From positions 274,041 through 338,040 of the forward strand of contig NW_015167060.1 in NCBI RefSeq assembly GCF_001447785.1: a stretch of 64,000 nt of DNA, in the 5' to 3' direction. Each line of letters begins with the position of its first letter. The stretch's first letter is position 1. Position numbers: made by a program. This stretch comes from Gekko japonicus (taxonomy: Eukaryota). Shown piece by piece: positions 39,001 through 57,000 of the stretch.

Positions 39001-42000
39001 GGTGGTTTCCCAACAAATAGTAACCAGGGCCAACCTTGCTTAGGTTCCAAGATCTGACAAGATCAGGCTAGCCTGGGCTATCACACAGATACTTTGGATA
39101 TAAGCGAAGTAATATTTGCAAGACTCTTAAATAATTGCCGAACTATAATTAACAGTGTCACATCCTCTGTAACATTTCATCTGCAAACATTTTAGACTCC
39201 ATATCTCAGGGCAAGGGTTATTATAGCATGCCTAGGTAAAGGTAAAGGTTTCCCTTGCTCAAAAGCCAGTTGAGTCCGACTCTAGGGTTGCGGTGCTCAA
39301 CTCCGTTTCAAAGCCGAAGAGTCAGCGCTGTCCAAAGACATTTCCGTGGTCATGTGGCCGGCATGACTAAACACCAAGGCGCACGGAACGCTGTTACCTT
39401 CCCACCGAAGTGGTACCTATTTATCTACTTGCAATTTCTTGCTTTCGAACTGCTAGGTTTGCAGGAGCTGGAACTAGAGACGGGAGCCCACTCCCTCATG
39501 CGGCACACTCGGGTCTCAAACTGCTGAACTACCGACCTTCCACAGCCTGCAGTTCAGCGTCTTAACCACTTGAGCCACCGCAGCTCCATAACATGCCTAC
39601 ATCTTCCCTATTCTCTGTATGCATGTGGGTATGGTTCTTCAGAGCTTTTCTCTCCAGCCTTTTTTTTTTTTTTTAAGAACTACAAAGCAGTTCTTTGGAT
39701 GACATCCTGAACTTCTGGTGAACAGATGGCCGTTTCCCTCTCCTTTAGAAACCCTGCAGCAAAATATTTAATGTTGGGGGAATCAGAATGTATGTTTTCA
39801 TGCTTTCCAGGTAGTTTGAGGGCAGCGTTAAAATATCAATTTCTTTTAGAAAGAAAACAGCAGGGACTTACAGAGTTTTATAACATCCTGTTTATTTGCA
39901 GTTATACAATTAGACAGAAGTAGCCACACAGCATTAGAGTCAGAACACGAAACAAAAGGCAGTAGCCTGGGCAGAGGTCATTTCAGGGGGGATGGTGGGG
40001 GATCACAGTTCCCCCGGGTGAGGTACGGCGGGCGGGGCACACGACGAAGCCCCCCCCCTTCCGGCCGCCCTGTTTCTGGCCCTCATTCAGCAGAAGTAAT
40101 GAAAACATCACAAGTTAAAATCAAATAAAATTTAAAATCCTGGATATCTATCTTCCCCCTTTAAAAGATGTCTGCTGTTAATTTCCCATCAAAAACCTGG
40201 CAAACCAACAAGCCTTGCAGCACTTTCTGAAGACTTCCAGTTAACAGGCTCCCTCCCTGGACTTCTTCTGGGAGCCCATTCCAAGGATTAGGAGCTGCTA
40301 TGGAAAAGGCCTGGGCTCTGATCAATGCCAGGAGGGCCACTCTGAGTGGGCCTGCCTTCCTTCCTTCCTTCCTTCCTTCCTTCCTTCCTTCCTTCCTTCC
40401 TTCCTTCCTTCCTTCCTTCCTTCCTTCCTTCCTGTTCTGCCCTTCCAGCTTCTCCTCCACATACCTTTGTCACAGAACTGCCAGCTCCAGGCTGAGACAT
40501 TCCTGAAGATTTAGGGGCGGAGCCTGGGAAGGGTGCAGTTTGGAGAGGGTAGGAGGTCATCAGGTATTAAGCATTCTATGAAGCAGCAGCAGCAACACTT
40601 ACTATTTAGTATGTATAATTCGTTCTCACAGCAAAGTTTGGGTTTTCACAAAATGTTGCTTTCATTTTTTACATGGATTACCATGGCAGGAAAAAGAGGA
40701 AGGAAAAGCAGATGGACAGGTGTTAGAAGCTATGGGAATGGACAGGAAGTATCATAGCAAAGAAGCCACACCCTTGGCCTCTGGAAGTCCCATCCAGACA
40801 TTATTATTATTTTTTTGGCTTCTGAACATTTTGCATGGACCACTCATGTATTTCCAAGCTTTCTGGTGTAATAAAAAATTTCTGAGACTCTCAACGTCCA
40901 GGTTTCTGTTAACATGCAGCATAAGAATAAAGTCAGCACCTGACCAGAGTCATCGGCTAGTCCCCCTGAAGATAGGCCTTCCACATGCACACTGTGCCAT
41001 CCAGTGAGACTGACACATACTGCAAGGAAACAGAGAGGTGATAAAGTCAGGGACCAAGAGCAATGGCATATGGCTTTCTTCAAGGACTGGATGCATTCAT
41101 GCAGCACACTGGGAATGCTTCCATCGGCCGTGGAATATTCTTGGGCACATTCTTGGCTTGCCAGAGAAGGCCTCAAAAAAAACCTGTGGCAGCTTAGAAA
41201 ACAGGCTAGGGTGGGAACAGACATGTTTCTTCCCTCTGAAGGCCACAACTTAAACCCAGAAAACAGCAAACCATCAGTTCAGTCTGACCCACATCTGTAC
41301 TATCATCTTGGCTGTGGAAGGAGTGGCACCATGACAAAATACACGTGTTTATACAGGGATAGTTTGGTGTGGGACAAGCCTGTGCCAGTGCCACCGCCAC
41401 CATGCTCAGTAAAGTGGACACATGAACCCACTGTGTAATGACATTATATCAGCATGCACTCAGCCCTCTGATGGGGGGAGGTGACTAATAGATGCTAGGT
41501 GAGAACATACAGCACATGTAGAGCACATGGCTTGAATATGCATCAGGGCAACTGCCTTCAAATAATGCTCAGTGGTAAAAGTAGTTAAACTCTCAACCTC
41601 AGAACCAATGATCTTCCCCCACACACACAGGGTGGTGCCACTGTCCCTTGTACCTGTTCCATTTCTGGGACATGGATGACACCCTTGATGGAGTCTTGAT
41701 GCCCTGTGTGACTTTGTACCTGCACCCCAGAGTTTGGGTCATAAACCCTACAGAGAAAAGAAAGAAGAGCCATCAACGCATTCACAGGCCTCCTGTCCTC
41801 TGATCCTCCCTTCCCCAGCCACATGGTCCCATAGCTACCTGATGGTGTCATGGACCCCTGCAACTATGCAGCCATTGGCCTGATCAATGCAAAGGCAAGT
41901 GATCCCTCTGGGGGCTCTCAGGTCCTTCATGCAGCATCCCCCGTCTTCACTCTGTATGTACCACAGACAGAGCTGCTGTCATCCATGCCCACTACCAAGG

Positions 42001-54000: not shown

Positions 54001-57000
54001 GATTTTCATGGAGTTGGACCAGTACGTTGCTCTTCATCGAGCAATAATACTAATACAACACCATCTAAAGTTGATTTTGTTTTGCAGAATTACCATCTTG
54101 CTGCAAACCTAAGGACTCCAAATTATAAGCACAAGGCCATACCCTAGTTTCCCATGAGATGGGCAAGGGTCTGGCATGGTCACCGTAGGCCAGTGATGGC
54201 GAACCTTTTAGAGACCGAGTGCCCAAACTGCGACTCAAAACCCACTTGTTTATCGCAAAGTGCCAACACGGCAATTTAACCTGAATCCTGAGGTTTTCGT
54301 TTAGAAAAAACAACTCCTACATTAACATAAGATGATCCAAACAAAGTAAGGAAAGCAATCCCAAATGCTTTCATTTACTTAAAATTATTTGGCAGAGAAT
54401 TCCACACTTTAATGACGGTCTGGGCCTGGCTGGGGCGATGGCACACGTGTCCACTGAGAGGGCTCTGAGTGCCGCCTCTGGCACGCGTGCCATAGGTTCA
54501 CCACCACTGCTGTAGGCCATGCAATCAGTTCTGCATAATGACGTATGCCTTGTGATGAGTTATTTTTGGTCCTGAGGTAAAGCAAAGAGGTGGTTCTTAC
54601 CTGAATACGGTCAAGAACTGTGCCTCCTGGAGCCCACACAATCACAGAGCTATCGTTGGAGGCAGAGAAGAGGAGACGTGCCTGTATCCAGGACAGGAAC
54701 TGTGTAACCCGGCCAGCATGCTCTTTGGTGCGCAAAGACATGTGGCCATTCTCCATGTCCCACCATTTGATCACTCCATCTATTAGGGCAAGAAAGAATG
54801 ATAGGTTTGGCTGGGGAACCATTTGTTAGGAAAAACCACAATCCATTCATTTCCATTATATCTGAAGAAACTATACAGGTAAAGGTTATCAGCTTTTGAC
54901 TTAAGAATAGTAGGCTAATGTGGCGTTCCCAGATGAGCTGAAGCATGCCTCTGGAAGGAGCATTTGGATGTGGGATCCTGCTTGTTAAACATATGCTGAA
55001 AACACATGGATGTGTTGGGCTTTTGCTATGCGTGGATTCTTGCAATCTGCTCTGGGGATATTTAATGGACCTGTGCTTTATTGTGGGCAATACAAAAAGT
55101 GGCTTTAGTACATAGATATTATTGCCCCCAGATTGTGCACACATGTATGGAGCAGGAATGGCAGTGGAAAACAGCTCGTCTTCCTAAGGCTCAGAAAGAA
55201 TTGAGAAAGTTGTTTCTTTCCAGCTCTGACTCACCCTCGAAGCCAGTGAGGCACTCACGTCGAGCTGCATGGTAGCCAAGAGCTGTTATAGGACGGCGGT
55301 GATGTTCCCTTATGCGCAAATGCTGCTGCATCGCCATGACTATGGTCAGTACTGAAGAGAGACAATATGGGAAAGTTTCCAAATCCCAAAGACAATATGA
55401 CAAGTTCCAAATTTACAGATGTCAGAGCTTCAAAGACGTAAGTGAGAATGTGATCTTTAGCAGAATGTACTCAAAATCTTACTCAAGTTTGTCCAATGGA
55501 CTTACTCCCAGACATGTGTTCTTAGGATGGGACGGTGAGTTTTTTGCAAATGTGGAGTCTAGTTTATCCTGAGGTGAATTGATCACAAATCCTTAAAAAC
55601 AAAAAGAAATCTTGTGGTACCTCAAAGACCACGAGATTTATTGAAGCACAAGCTCTAGCCAAGGATAGTTTATGCTTCCATACATCAGTCAGCCTTGAAG
55701 GGGTCATGAGATTCCTCTTTCTTCCTTTCTTTTTTCTTCTGCGGCAGACTGACAGCATGGCAACCTCACTGGAGTCTGCAAGCAGCAGCAGTAAGTATTA
55801 TTTTAAATCACTGTTTAGCCATCTGTGGCATGATTTTCCAAAGGTCACACAGCAGCAGTGTTTTCGTACTGTTCCTCCACAAACTGTATCGTATGCCACT
55901 CATTTTGACCCACCACAAATCCTCAGACACTATGAATGGTACCATGTTCTGTAAATGAAGAGCCCAAGAGTAGGCAGACCTCAGCCCTGAGAAGAAGGAA
56001 GAAGGTGTGGGGAGGCAGCAGAGAGGCTTTTCCTTTCTCTGTTGCAGCCCTGAACTGCCTCGCAGGGCTGAGTTTCTGTCTGGGACAAAGCAAGCCCTCC
56101 AGTCCCTCTCCTGTTCCTCATTGCTCTGATTTCATACCTCTTCAGCGTTTGCTTTGTAGAAGGGAACAAGTGAATAGCTTCCCAAGGAAATTTTCTCTGG
56201 ACCCATATAAAAATAATACTTGCCCTGTATATGTCTTATGTCTGGAAAGCATTACAGAGCTGGGTGGGAAGGGGATCAGAGCATACAGGTGCAAAGGAAC
56301 AGAGGGATCTACCTTGCAGCCTGAATAACTGTGCAGTGCAAGAGAGGGAATTTCAGTATATGTCCGGCTACGCCAGTTTTACCGCTGAGCATGCTCTTTT
56401 ACACATTCGTCAAAGGTAAAGAAGAAGCCCTGTCTTCCTCCGCATCTGGCCACTCAGCAGGACAAGTTACAGTTACCCTGCAAGTTGCAACCTTAAAGGA
56501 CACAGCAGACATCGCGCCCCCGGTCCATGTCCCCCTCCCGTCCCCTCCCTCTTCTGCCTGTGGTGAAGGAGGGACTGCGCAACTTCCCAACATGCTTACA
56601 TTGTGGCGCTCCCAGTCCCTTAAAAACATGGATGATCCTAGTTCGGTCAGCCCTGCAAAGCTCCCCCACCTCCTTTCCTGAGACTTGCCCAAATATACAA
56701 GGTACAGCCAGGCAGCAGGGGTGCAGAGAAGGGTTCTCCGGAGTCTCAGGCTGCCCGAAGAAAGTCAGAGTTTCTCGTTTACTTCCTGCTCATGTTACCA
56801 TGGGAATAAGAAGGCGGGAGTGAGCTAATCCCAGGGTTTGCGCTGCTGAAGTGTTTCGTGTCGTGAGAATCAGAGGCGCACCGGTTTTGATTGACGTCAC
56901 ACACCCCGAGAAGCACTGCAATGGTAGGAAAAGCCCCGCCGTTATCACCTTGAGCTACACTAAGCAATTAAAACATCCTAAGAAGTACCTAATATCAGGA

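What the first reader, a model, noticed from the sequence alone, without database searches (positions are those of the whole stretch)
40957..55337. Intact 719-aa WD40 protein that I cannot assign to any named gene
Seventeen exons splice in phase with no stop, though several are missing from the ORF track. WD repeats run from the first to the last exon, interrupted by two polar insertions (exon 9; exons 10-11). The length suggests two beta-propellers (inference). I do not recognise it as a named human WDR gene.
Basis: partly seen in the sequence, partly recalled or inferred. Interest (0 to 1): 0.68.

Follow-up and report, generated by a model that had tools for sequence, protein, structure and literature searches.

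The report
Unnamed ancient WD40 gene in gecko
This is an intact lizard copy of a very old two-propeller WD40 gene that databases list only as "uncharacterized", found from flagellated fungi to sharks, frogs and lizards, with no mammal, bird, bony-fish, insect or nematode copy found, so it has never been studied.

Summary
On the minus strand, 17 exons (55337 down to 40957) have AG/GT borders and fitting phases. They carry no internal stop and add up to 2160 nt, which is 719 codons plus a stop.

The window is squamate (gecko-like), not human. Residue by residue, the gene is 675/719 identical to the 719-aa RefSeq "uncharacterized protein LOC132571507" of Heteronotia binoei.

It belongs to an unnamed, vertically inherited family:
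- Named members come from squamates, amphibians, cartilaginous fishes, sturgeon, paddlefish, bichir and lungfish.
- They also come from many ciliated invertebrates and zoosporic fungi.
- No named hit comes from a mammal, bird, turtle, crocodilian, teleost, arthropod, nematode, higher fungus or plant.

Only the generic WD40 Pfam model passes its cut-off in a meaningful way, and no protein-specific propeller family does. No solved structure is an orthologue. An AlphaFold model of the orthologue shows about 14 blades and two disordered loops, in exon 9 and in exons 10-11.

All 186 family-conserved positions are kept. Function is untested. My best guess is a non-enzymatic scaffold used in cells with motile cilia or flagella, at about 0.35 probability. 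The joined window model was never assembled, searched or folded.

The parts
40957..55337 (-). Whole coding span of the WD40 gene: 17 exons, 719 codons plus stop
   Evidence: Splice sites, phases and length come. All exons were recovered by tblastn with P0004.
55235..55337 (-). Exon 1 with the ATG at 55337; it codes the conserved N-terminus MAMQ...
   Evidence: M1 is invariant and M3 nearly invariant in the family alignment, and both are kept in the window.
54601..54779 (-). Exon 2 (residues 35-94), used for the exon-wise homology search
   Evidence: 21 hits at E <= 0.001. 20 of the 21 carry names and all 20 are squamates; the best is 97% identical (Sphaerodactylus townsendi).
53666..53871 (-). 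Exon 3
   Evidence: 65/68 residues identical to P0004
53105..53242 (-). Exon 4
   Evidence: 45/46
51579..51762 (-). Exon 5
   Evidence: 60/62
49597..49690 (-). Exon 6; its donor sits in a 15-nt tandem duplication
48095..48193 (-). Exon 7
47751..47841 (-). Exon 8
46513..46719 (-). Exon 9: 207 nt, 69 codons, residues 365-433. It carries the first disordered polar loop and is a predicted cassette exon.
   Evidence: pLDDT below 50 at residues 387-427. Heteronotia isoform X2 (P0003, 650 aa) and Paroedura P0005 lack exactly residues 365-433; 59/69 residues identical to P0004.
45556..45664 (-). Exon 10; its end begins the second disordered loop
   Evidence: 31/37
44451..44529 (-). Exon 11, acidic/polar loop
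   Evidence: pLDDT below 50 at residues 461-496; 23/26
44199..44293 (-). Exon 12
43849..43973 (-). Exon 13 (codes LSGGWDGRLCLWDL...)
43447..43627 (-). Exon 14, the clearest single WD40 repeat
   Evidence: PF00400 at 30.0 bits against a cut-off of 27
41839..41951 (-). Exon 15
41654..41747 (-). Exon 16
   Evidence: 32/32
40957..41019 (-). Exon 17 with the TAG stop at 40959-40957

Best explanation
The window comes from a gecko-like squamate, not from human. It carries the intact orthologue of an ancient, unnamed WD40 gene family. Databases hold the family only as 'uncharacterized protein LOC...'; the 719-aa Heteronotia binoei LOC132571507 isoform X1 is one example.

Shown:
- The 17-exon, 719-codon structure.
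- 94% identity to that orthologue.
- Retention of every family-conserved position.
- A gene tree that follows the species tree from zoosporic fungi through invertebrates, cartilaginous fishes and amphibians to squamates.

Shown on the orthologue only: a fold of about 14 WD blades, with a disordered loop coded by exon 9 and another coded by exons 10-11. Exon 9 is skipped in two predicted gecko isoforms.

Inferred:
- The protein has no recognisable catalytic domain, so it most likely works as a docking platform that holds other proteins together.
- Named members come only from organisms that build cilia or flagella. None comes from higher fungi, plants, nematodes or arthropods.
- From that pattern I take the most likely setting to be cells that build motile cilia or flagella, perhaps in a cytoplasmic or basal-body role rather than in the axoneme lattice. 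I give this functional part about 0.35 probability.
- No named record comes from mammals, from birds, turtles or crocodilians, or from teleosts. If that reflects real absence, the gene was lost repeatedly, so its role is dispensable or replaceable.
For: Structure: all AG/GT, phases fit, 2160 nt; all 17 exons matched by P0004.

Identity. 675/719 residues match P0004, and 75/75 invariant and 111/111 nearly invariant positions of family alignment A1 are kept.

Constraint:
- Differences from P0004 are 3.8 times denser in exons 9-11 (19/132) than elsewhere (25/587); Fisher p = 7e-5.
- Branches inside squamates are short, 0.05-0.21 changes per column.

Family range:
- 20 of 21 hits are named and all 20 are squamates.
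- 58 family rows. These are 24 squamate, 14 frog, 1 salamander, 13 cartilaginous fish, 3 non-teleost ray-finned fish, 1 lungfish, 1 hemichordate and 1 Blastocladiella. E-values then jump from 3e-83 to 9e-23.
- 117 of the 120 listed rows belong to the family, and 85 of them are named by my count. They cover molluscs, annelids, nemerteans, a bryozoan, a flatworm, echinoderms, hemichordates, amphioxus, tunicates, cnidarians, placozoans, sponges, a ctenophore and five zoosporic fungi.
- in a tree of 69 rows, squamates (100), tetrapods (100) and jawed vertebrates (100) are each one clade.

No named family:
- PF00400 scores 103.7 against a cut-off of 27. The best protein-specific model, WDR3 first propeller, scores 125.9 against 154.
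- no NCBIfam match.

Fold: pLDDT 81.2, pTM 0.73; best matches are tandem propellers at 11-16% identity.
Against: Against the ciliary reading:
- Mammals, birds and teleosts have motile cilia, yet no copy from them was found.
- The family profile found no orthologue among the chains of the PDB copy searched, only generic WD40 hits. That copy includes ciliary doublet entries from several species (one search lists some).
- No X-box was found anywhere in the window, and there is no CpG island at the ATG.
- The profile rests on named hits of word-seeded searches.

Against 'no mammalian orthologue': a copy more diverged than the fungal ones would have been hidden below the giant multi-repeat WD40 proteins in the top 150.

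Expression in this animal is not shown.

The stem branch to squamates is long (0.61), so the function may have shifted.
Confidence: 0.8

Rival explanations
1. Same gene and family, but its work has nothing to do with cilia. It would be a general docking protein in some other process, such as RNA or ribosome handling like the tandem-propeller UTP proteins it resembles. It would have been lost here and there because other WD40 proteins cover for it.
For: - The best structural matches include TBL3/UTP13, WDR3, UTP12, PWP2 and Gemin5.
- No named record of the family comes from mammals, birds or teleosts, which are all ciliated.
- No solved axonemal chain is an orthologue.
- No X-box was found in the window.
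Against: - Those structural matches share only 11-16% identity and TM about 0.35, which is the generic tandem-propeller shape.
- None of the UTP, WDR3 or WDR36 Pfam models reaches its cut-off.
- Among named hits the only fungi are zoosporic. Dikarya, plants, nematodes and arthropods are missing although they are heavily sequenced.
Confidence: 0.45
2. It is a fast-evolving orthologue of a named mammalian WDR gene. The mammalian copy would have diverged beyond what these searches can see.
For: - The stem branch to squamates is long (0.61), so lineage-specific speed-ups do occur in this family.
- The top 150 of the exhaustive search fill up with giant repeat proteins at 285 bits and more, which could hide a weak full-length match.
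Against: - Fungal orthologues at 28-30% identity were still found as clear full-length matches. A mammalian copy would have to be more diverged than those.
- No mammalian name appears in 58 + 117 family rows.
- No protein-specific Pfam family passes its cut-off.
Confidence: 0.05
3. It is a dying or dead gene: an open frame kept by chance or only recently released from selection, and not expressed.
For: - No expression data could be consulted.
- The Sphaerodactylus model (P0001, 546 aa) is truncated after exon 12.
- No canonical AATAAA was seen in the 650 bases after the stop.
Against: - There are 719 open codons across 17 exons with 32 of 32 canonical splice dinucleotides.
- All 186 conserved positions are kept.
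- Changes concentrate in the disordered loops.
- Full-length models exist in many squamate families.
Confidence: 0.03
4. It is foreign DNA or a bacterial-type gene, as the automatic names 'alr2800-like' and 'alr3466-like' (cyanobacterial WD40 proteins) and the 'UNVERIFIED_CONTAM' label on the Gekko kuhli record might suggest.
For: - The best sequence match in the PDB is the Nostoc repeat propeller 2ymu.
- One record carries a contamination flag.
Against: - The gene has sixteen spliceosomal introns.
- The tree follows the animal and fungal species tree.
- Bacterial hits match only as repeated short stretches, at E 1e-23 and worse, covering 14-58% of the query apart from a few low-identity (20-22%) rows at 69-93%.
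Confidence: 0.01

Closest known systems
RefSeq 'uncharacterized protein LOC132571507 isoform X1' of Heteronotia binoei (P0004) and its squamate counterparts (Python LOC103050984, Crotalus LOC120304029, Hemicordylus LOC128346552 and others)
   Same: - Same length (719 aa) and 675/719 identical residues.
- Same exon content, all 17 exons.
- Same predicted skipping of exon 9 in isoform X2.
   Different: It is a different species. The 44 substitutions lie mostly in the loop exons 9-11. None of these records has a name or a tested function.
The wider unnamed family: for example Strongylocentrotus LOC752732, Branchiostoma LOC109484071, Capitella CAPTEDRAFT_187404, Trichoplax TRIADDRAFT_51347, and chytrid 'WD40 repeat-like protein' records
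   Same: These align collinearly end to end, at 40-50% identity to vertebrate members and about 30% to the fungal one. There are 75 invariant columns in A1.
   Different: - Non-squamate members carry longer loops and a conserved 'SVTNRV(A/S)GF' stretch before the second half, which squamates have changed.
- Several unnamed deep-branching members have a C-terminal tail with an 'HPLVxPKAL'-like motif that vertebrates lack.
Tandem-propeller WD40 scaffolds with solved structures: Nostoc 2ymu, TBL3/UTP13 and WDR3 (7mq8), Gemin5, PWP2, AIP1, and chains of ciliary doublet entries such as 6u42 chain 5L (FAP52/CFAP52 by my recall)
   Same: They share the overall build of two WD40 propellers. Foldseek gives E 1e-26 to 1e-21 over 700-800 aligned columns.
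   Different: - Identity is only 11-16% and TM 0.33-0.39, so this is shape and not kinship.
- Their Pfam models stay below their cut-offs.
- The chain names for 7mq8 LR/LQ and 6u42 5L are partly from my recall; one search confirms only WDR3 for 7mq8_LQ.
DAW1/ODA16 (dynein assembly factor with WD repeats 1), the automatic name of one Spea bombifrons family record
   Same: It is a WD40 protein tied to flagella, and the family profile matches PDB 5mzh at E 8e-43.
   Different: The solved DAW1 chains are 415-452 residues. The matches are 2-4 partial stretches (the best covers profile positions 620-742), not an end-to-end match. They rank below an unrelated Nostoc protein.

Membership tests
WD40 repeat superfamily (Pfam PF00400) | Repeat profile above the curated cut-off | tested here: met
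   The orthologue P0004 scores 103.7 bits against 27. The window's exon-14 stretch alone scores 30.0 against 27.
Tandem (double) beta-propeller architecture | About 14 four-stranded blades in one chain | tested here: met
   The model of P0004 (94% identical to the window's product) has 57 strands between residues 3 and 713, with pLDDT 81.2. The top Foldseek matches are tandem propellers. How the blades divide between the two propellers was not read from coordinates. The window's own joined product was not folded.
The unnamed 'LOC132571507-type' orthologue family | End-to-end collinear match, the family's invariant positions, and placement inside the clade on a tree | tested here: met
   All 17 exons matched. 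75/75 invariant and 111/111 nearly invariant positions are kept. The proxy P0004 sits in a 100%-supported squamate clade inside tetrapods.
Protein-specific propeller families of Pfam (WDR3, PRP19, THOC3, CDC20/Fizzy, WDHD1, EML, WDR55, TEP1 second propeller, WDR90/POC16, WDR36/UTP21, WDR5, WDR41) | Score at or above each family's gathering cut-off | tested here: not met
   All stay below their cut-offs: 125.9 against 154, 116.4 against 320, 97 against 305, 92.1 against 200, 88.9 against 109.9, 78.2 against 90, 55.5 against 60, and so on. Only three short generic pieces just pass: TEP1_C at 47.5 against 32, ANAPC4_WD40 at 29.9 against 22.9, and DCAF12 at 28.1 against 27.
HET-E-1 type fungal incompatibility proteins (an automatic name on several records) | N-terminal HET and NACHT domains ahead of the WD40 repeats (domain make-up from my recall) | tested here: not met
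   The first strand starts at residue 3. Only WD40 and propeller models are among the 25 families listed of the 31 matched.
UTP13/TBL3 (an automatic name on the Callorhinchus and Nematostella records) | Two propellers plus a C-terminal Utp13 domain (from my recall) | tested here: not met
   The protein ends 6 residues after the last strand. No Utp13 domain is listed. The structural match to 7mq8_LR is 14% identical at TM 0.35.
Cilium/flagellum genes as defined by phyletic profile | Present in ciliated lineages and absent from unciliated ones | tested here: inconclusive
   All named hits come from ciliated or flagellated organisms, and the only fungi are zoosporic. But no named hit comes from ciliated mammals, birds or teleosts. 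The 20 unnamed representatives put in the tree could not be given organisms. The searches are word-seeded.
Axonemal structural proteins with solved structures | An orthologous chain in a deposited axoneme structure | tested here: not met
   The profile search of 177,635 distinct PDB sequences gave only generic WD40 matches. Ciliary doublet chains appear only as 12-13% identical shape matches.

The most novel reading that the evidence does not exclude
The family is a still-unrecognised component of the machinery that builds or controls motile cilia and flagella. It would date back at least to the common ancestor of animals and fungi. It has escaped study because it turned up in none of the classic models: no named record from human, mouse, chicken, zebrafish, fly, worm, yeast or Arabidopsis appeared, and no Xenopus record appeared among 14 frog rows. 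The squamate copy, with its changed mid-region and skippable exon 9, would then be a lineage-specific version of that component. A bolder extension is that it works with the ARL3-like GTPase gene lying 7.5 kb downstream on the same strand. I give that extension about 0.05 only.
Probability: 0.3. Interest if true: 0.6.

Novelty: new member of a known kind. Interest (0 to 1): 0.38.

Why it matters
If the reading is right, this is a well-conserved, roughly 700-million-year-plus gene whose function nobody has tested, because no copy turned up in any standard laboratory animal or fungus. Three things make it a cheap candidate for work in tractable non-model species that have it, such as Anolis, Pleurodeles, Ciona, sea urchin, Nematostella and Macrostomum:
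- Its distribution across organisms.
- The losses implied in mammals, in the bird-turtle-crocodile line and in teleosts.
- Its clean tandem-propeller build.

For genome annotation the result is plain. The gene is real and intact. The automatic names it carries (alr2800-like, HET-E-1-like, UTP13, DAW1-like) are look-alike labels and should not be propagated.

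Tried and rejected
- Exon-wise Pfam was too weak to name anything beyond WD40.
- NCBIfam gave no match.
- The ESM Atlas searches with P0004 and P0160 returned only generic WD40 clusters. The family's own cluster was not among them.
- The PDB sequence profile search and Foldseek found only generic propellers.
- Literature:
  - Six record identifiers of family members gave 0 papers.
  - 'alr2800/alr3466(-like)' gave 3 unrelated papers, seen as a listing only.
  - 'HET-E-1' combined with sperm and cilia gave only general cilia papers with 0 occurrences of the name (listing only).
  - The palindromic consensus gave 7 matches at 3 mismatches against 3.2 expected. One lies 1.46 kb upstream of the ATG (56794-56807) and is not convincing.
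  - The degenerate pattern run as a regular expression gave 0 matches in the window.
- There is no CpG island at the ATG and no AATAAA in the 650 bases after the stop.
- Co-loss with the neighbouring ARL3-like gene was considered and dropped. Zebrafish papers mention arl3l1 and arl3l2 (listing only), while no teleost copy of the WD40 family was found.
- Complex prediction was not used. I do not claim a partner, and the neighbour's full product would have needed joined exons.

Full report
**What was asked and what was left out.** I never assembled, searched or folded the joined product of the window. Full-length work was done with a named database orthologue that an exon search returned. I take the window for a squamate (gecko-like) contig, not a human one. 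The only N run (35551-35633) lies outside the gene and was left alone.

**The observation.** The gene is on the minus strand. One search checked each exon.
- All 16 acceptors are AG and all 16 donors are GT.
- Every phase fits, and no exon or junction codon holds a stop.
- The lengths sum to 2160 nt, which is 719 codons plus TAG.
- The ATG is at 55337 and the last base of the stop is at 40957, exactly the coordinates given.

Independently, tblastn of the 719-aa Heteronotia binoei protein P0004 against the window found all 17 exons in order. Walking the exons residue by residue gave 675 of 719 positions identical to P0004, with no length difference.

Exon-wise Pfam was weak, as expected when repeats are cut by introns. 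Five of 10 stretches gave WD40-type hits at E <= 1. Only the exon-14 stretch passed the WD40 cut-off (30.0 against 27 bits). Three stretches gave nothing and two gave small spurious hits.

**Whose gene it is.** Exon 2 alone (59 aa) returned 21 proteins at E <= 0.001.
- 20 carry names and all 20 are squamates.
- The best are geckos: Sphaerodactylus 97%, and Gekko and Heteronotia 95%.
- All are 'uncharacterized' or 'hypothetical' records, or carry automatic look-alike names.

So the gene is already predicted in RefSeq for many squamates, but it has no name.

**How far the family reaches.** With P0004 as query, one search listed 58 family rows:
- 24 squamate rows
- 14 frog rows
- 1 salamander row
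- 13 cartilaginous-fish rows
- 3 non-teleost ray-finned fish rows (paddlefish, sturgeon, bichir)
- 1 lungfish row
- 1 hemichordate row
- 1 row from the zoosporic fungus Blastocladiella, at E 3e-83

The next row is a generic WD40 protein at 9e-23.

An exhaustive profile search of 1.84 billion representatives added many end-to-end matches of 727-905 aa, without names.

A profile of 22 non-vertebrate members (A2) then gave 117 family rows among the 120 listed, of which I count 85 as named. They cover:
- 26 mollusc genera, plus annelids, nemerteans, a bryozoan and the flatworm Macrostomum
- echinoderms, hemichordates, amphioxus and tunicates
- cnidarians, placozoans, sponges and a ctenophore
- the zoosporic fungi Polychytrium, Rhizoclosmatium, Chytriomyces, Nowakowskiella and Piromyces

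No named row or 28 comes from a mammal, bird, turtle, crocodilian, teleost, arthropod, nematode, higher fungus or plant. No Xenopus row appears among the 14 frog rows.

A maximum-likelihood tree of 69 rows (49 named, 20 unnamed; quick search, LG+G4) follows the species tree.
- Squamates (7 rows) have support 100.
- Squamates plus amphibians (13 rows) have support 100.
- Jawed vertebrates (23 rows) have support 100.
- Outside them come an unnamed row, then tunicates, amphioxus and ambulacrarians, protostomes, cnidarians, and the fungi.
- A clade of eight unnamed rows branches deep.

Inheritance is therefore vertical. The cyanobacterial names are look-alike labels, and 16 spliceosomal introns settle that point.

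**Is it any named family?** No, as far as these tools see.
- For P0004 only the generic WD40 model passes its cut-off clearly (103.7 against 27).
- The best protein-specific propeller model, WDR3 first propeller, stays below its cut-off (125.9 against 154). So do PRP19, THOC3, CDC20, WDHD1, EML, WDR55, TEP1, POC16 and UTP21.
- NCBIfam gives nothing.
- The family profile against all PDB sequences finds only generic repeats: Nostoc 2ymu, designed propellers, DAW1, WDR3, LIS1 and WDR5.
- The two Atlas searches gave generic WD40 clusters.
- Three literature searches found nothing on the family (listings only).

**Shape.** AlphaFold2 on alignment A1, with P0004 first, gave mean pLDDT 81.2 and pTM 0.73.
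- The model has 57 strands from residue 3 to residue 713, which is about 14 blades.
- Confidence drops below 50 at residues 274-284, 387-427, 461-496 and 520-523.

Foldseek against the PDB returns tandem-propeller proteins such as 2ymu, SSU-processome chains, Apaf-1, Gemin5, PWP2, AIP1 and ciliary doublet chains. Identity is only 11-16% and TM 0.33-0.39. That is shared build, not kinship.

Exon 9 (207 nt, 69 codons) is missing exactly from Heteronotia isoform X2 and from the Paroedura model. It is therefore a predicted cassette exon.

**Constraint.**
- All 75 invariant and all 111 nearly invariant positions of A1 are kept in the window.
- Of the 44 differences from Heteronotia, 19 fall in the 132 residues of exons 9-11 and 25 in the other 587 (Fisher p = 7e-5).
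- Branches within squamates are short (0.05-0.21). The stem leading to squamates is long (0.61), so some change of role on that stem cannot be excluded.
- dN/dS could not be computed, because no other squamate coding DNA was on hand.

**How it most likely works.** There is no catalytic or other domain, only blades and two loops, so the protein is most likely a docking platform. The named members come only from organisms with cilia or flagella, and among fungi only from those with zoospores. That points to a role tied to cilia or flagella, and I rate it at about 0.35.

Four things speak against it:
- No named record comes from ciliated mammals, birds or teleosts.
- No solved axonemal chain is an orthologue.
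- The window has no X-box, and there is no CpG island at the ATG.
- The unnamed deep clade could not be given organisms.

A role outside cilia is about as likely.

The ARL3-like GTPase gene 7.5 kb downstream on the same strand is a tempting partner. But adjacency alone is weak, and zebrafish papers mention arl3l genes while no teleost copy of this family was found.

**Verdict.** This is a real, intact, constrained gene. It is an orthologue of an old but unnamed tandem-propeller WD40 family that is already predicted in databases and has never been characterised. It is a new member of a known kind and of moderate interest.

**What stayed unchecked:**
- the window's own joined product
- expression
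- dN/dS
- synteny in the lineages from which no copy was found
- organism names for the unnamed representatives
- the closed contig collections
- paper supplements, where sperm and cilia proteome tables of Ciona, sea urchin or oyster might list family members

Noticed in passing
window 28851-33458, minus strand: A complete-looking ARL3-like small GTPase gene in five coding pieces lies 7.5 kb downstream of the WD40 gene on the same strand. Both pieces tested match Pfam Arf. The best PDB match of one piece is ARL3 (E 7e-23, 43/62 identical by my count), ahead of ARF1 and ARL2. It is therefore probably an ARL3 paralogue. The Paroedura picta model P0005 fuses it to the WD40 gene.
   Followed up: partly
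window 42098-42382 and 42567-42859 (intron 14 of the WD40 gene): A near-perfect inverted repeat with arms of about 285 nt in three collinear pieces (96-99% complementary) and about 184 nt between the arms. It may be a foldback element or a recent inverted duplication.
   Followed up: partly
window 49569-49598: The donor of exon 6 lies in a 15-nt tandem duplication, so a second GT sits 15 nt further on. Using it would add five codons in frame without a stop. The Heteronotia protein shows no such insertion.
   Followed up: partly
window 5335-9272, minus strand: Three pieces of an emp24/GOLD (TMED, p24 family) gene: Pfam EMP24_GP25L at E 7e-17, 2e-11 and 0.007.
   Followed up: partly
window 35551-35633: A run of 83 N between the ARL3-like gene and the WD40 gene.
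   Followed up: no
window 40351-40433 and about 25440-25640: A (CCTT)n microsatellite of 20.8 copies lies about 520 bases past the stop of the WD40 gene. A second simple repeat shows up in all frames of the ORF list near 25.5 kb.
   Followed up: partly
window 7638-8006 (+) and 14635-15153 (+): Reverse-transcriptase fragments (Pfam RVT_1, E 5e-17 and 3e-13), presumably decayed LINE copies. Similar-looking ORFs lie at 60333-60698 and 61649-61894 on the minus strand.
   Followed up: partly
window 23177-23536, minus strand: An ORF that looks like a first exon with a signal peptide (a leucine-rich hydrophobic run after an ATG). It has no Pfam match and the gene was not identified.
   Followed up: partly
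proteins P0146, P0160, P0165, P0188, P0192, P0200, P0261, P0127 (unnamed representatives): Deep-branching unnamed family members share a C-terminal tail with an 'HPLVxPKAL'-like motif after the last blade. Vertebrate members lack it. Their organisms could not be looked up.
   Followed up: no
protein P0001 (Sphaerodactylus townsendi, 546 aa): This RefSeq model stops after exon 12 by reading into the intron. The same read-through frame in the window (44198 downward) is also open for a stretch. It is probably a truncated model and not a real short isoform.
   Followed up: no
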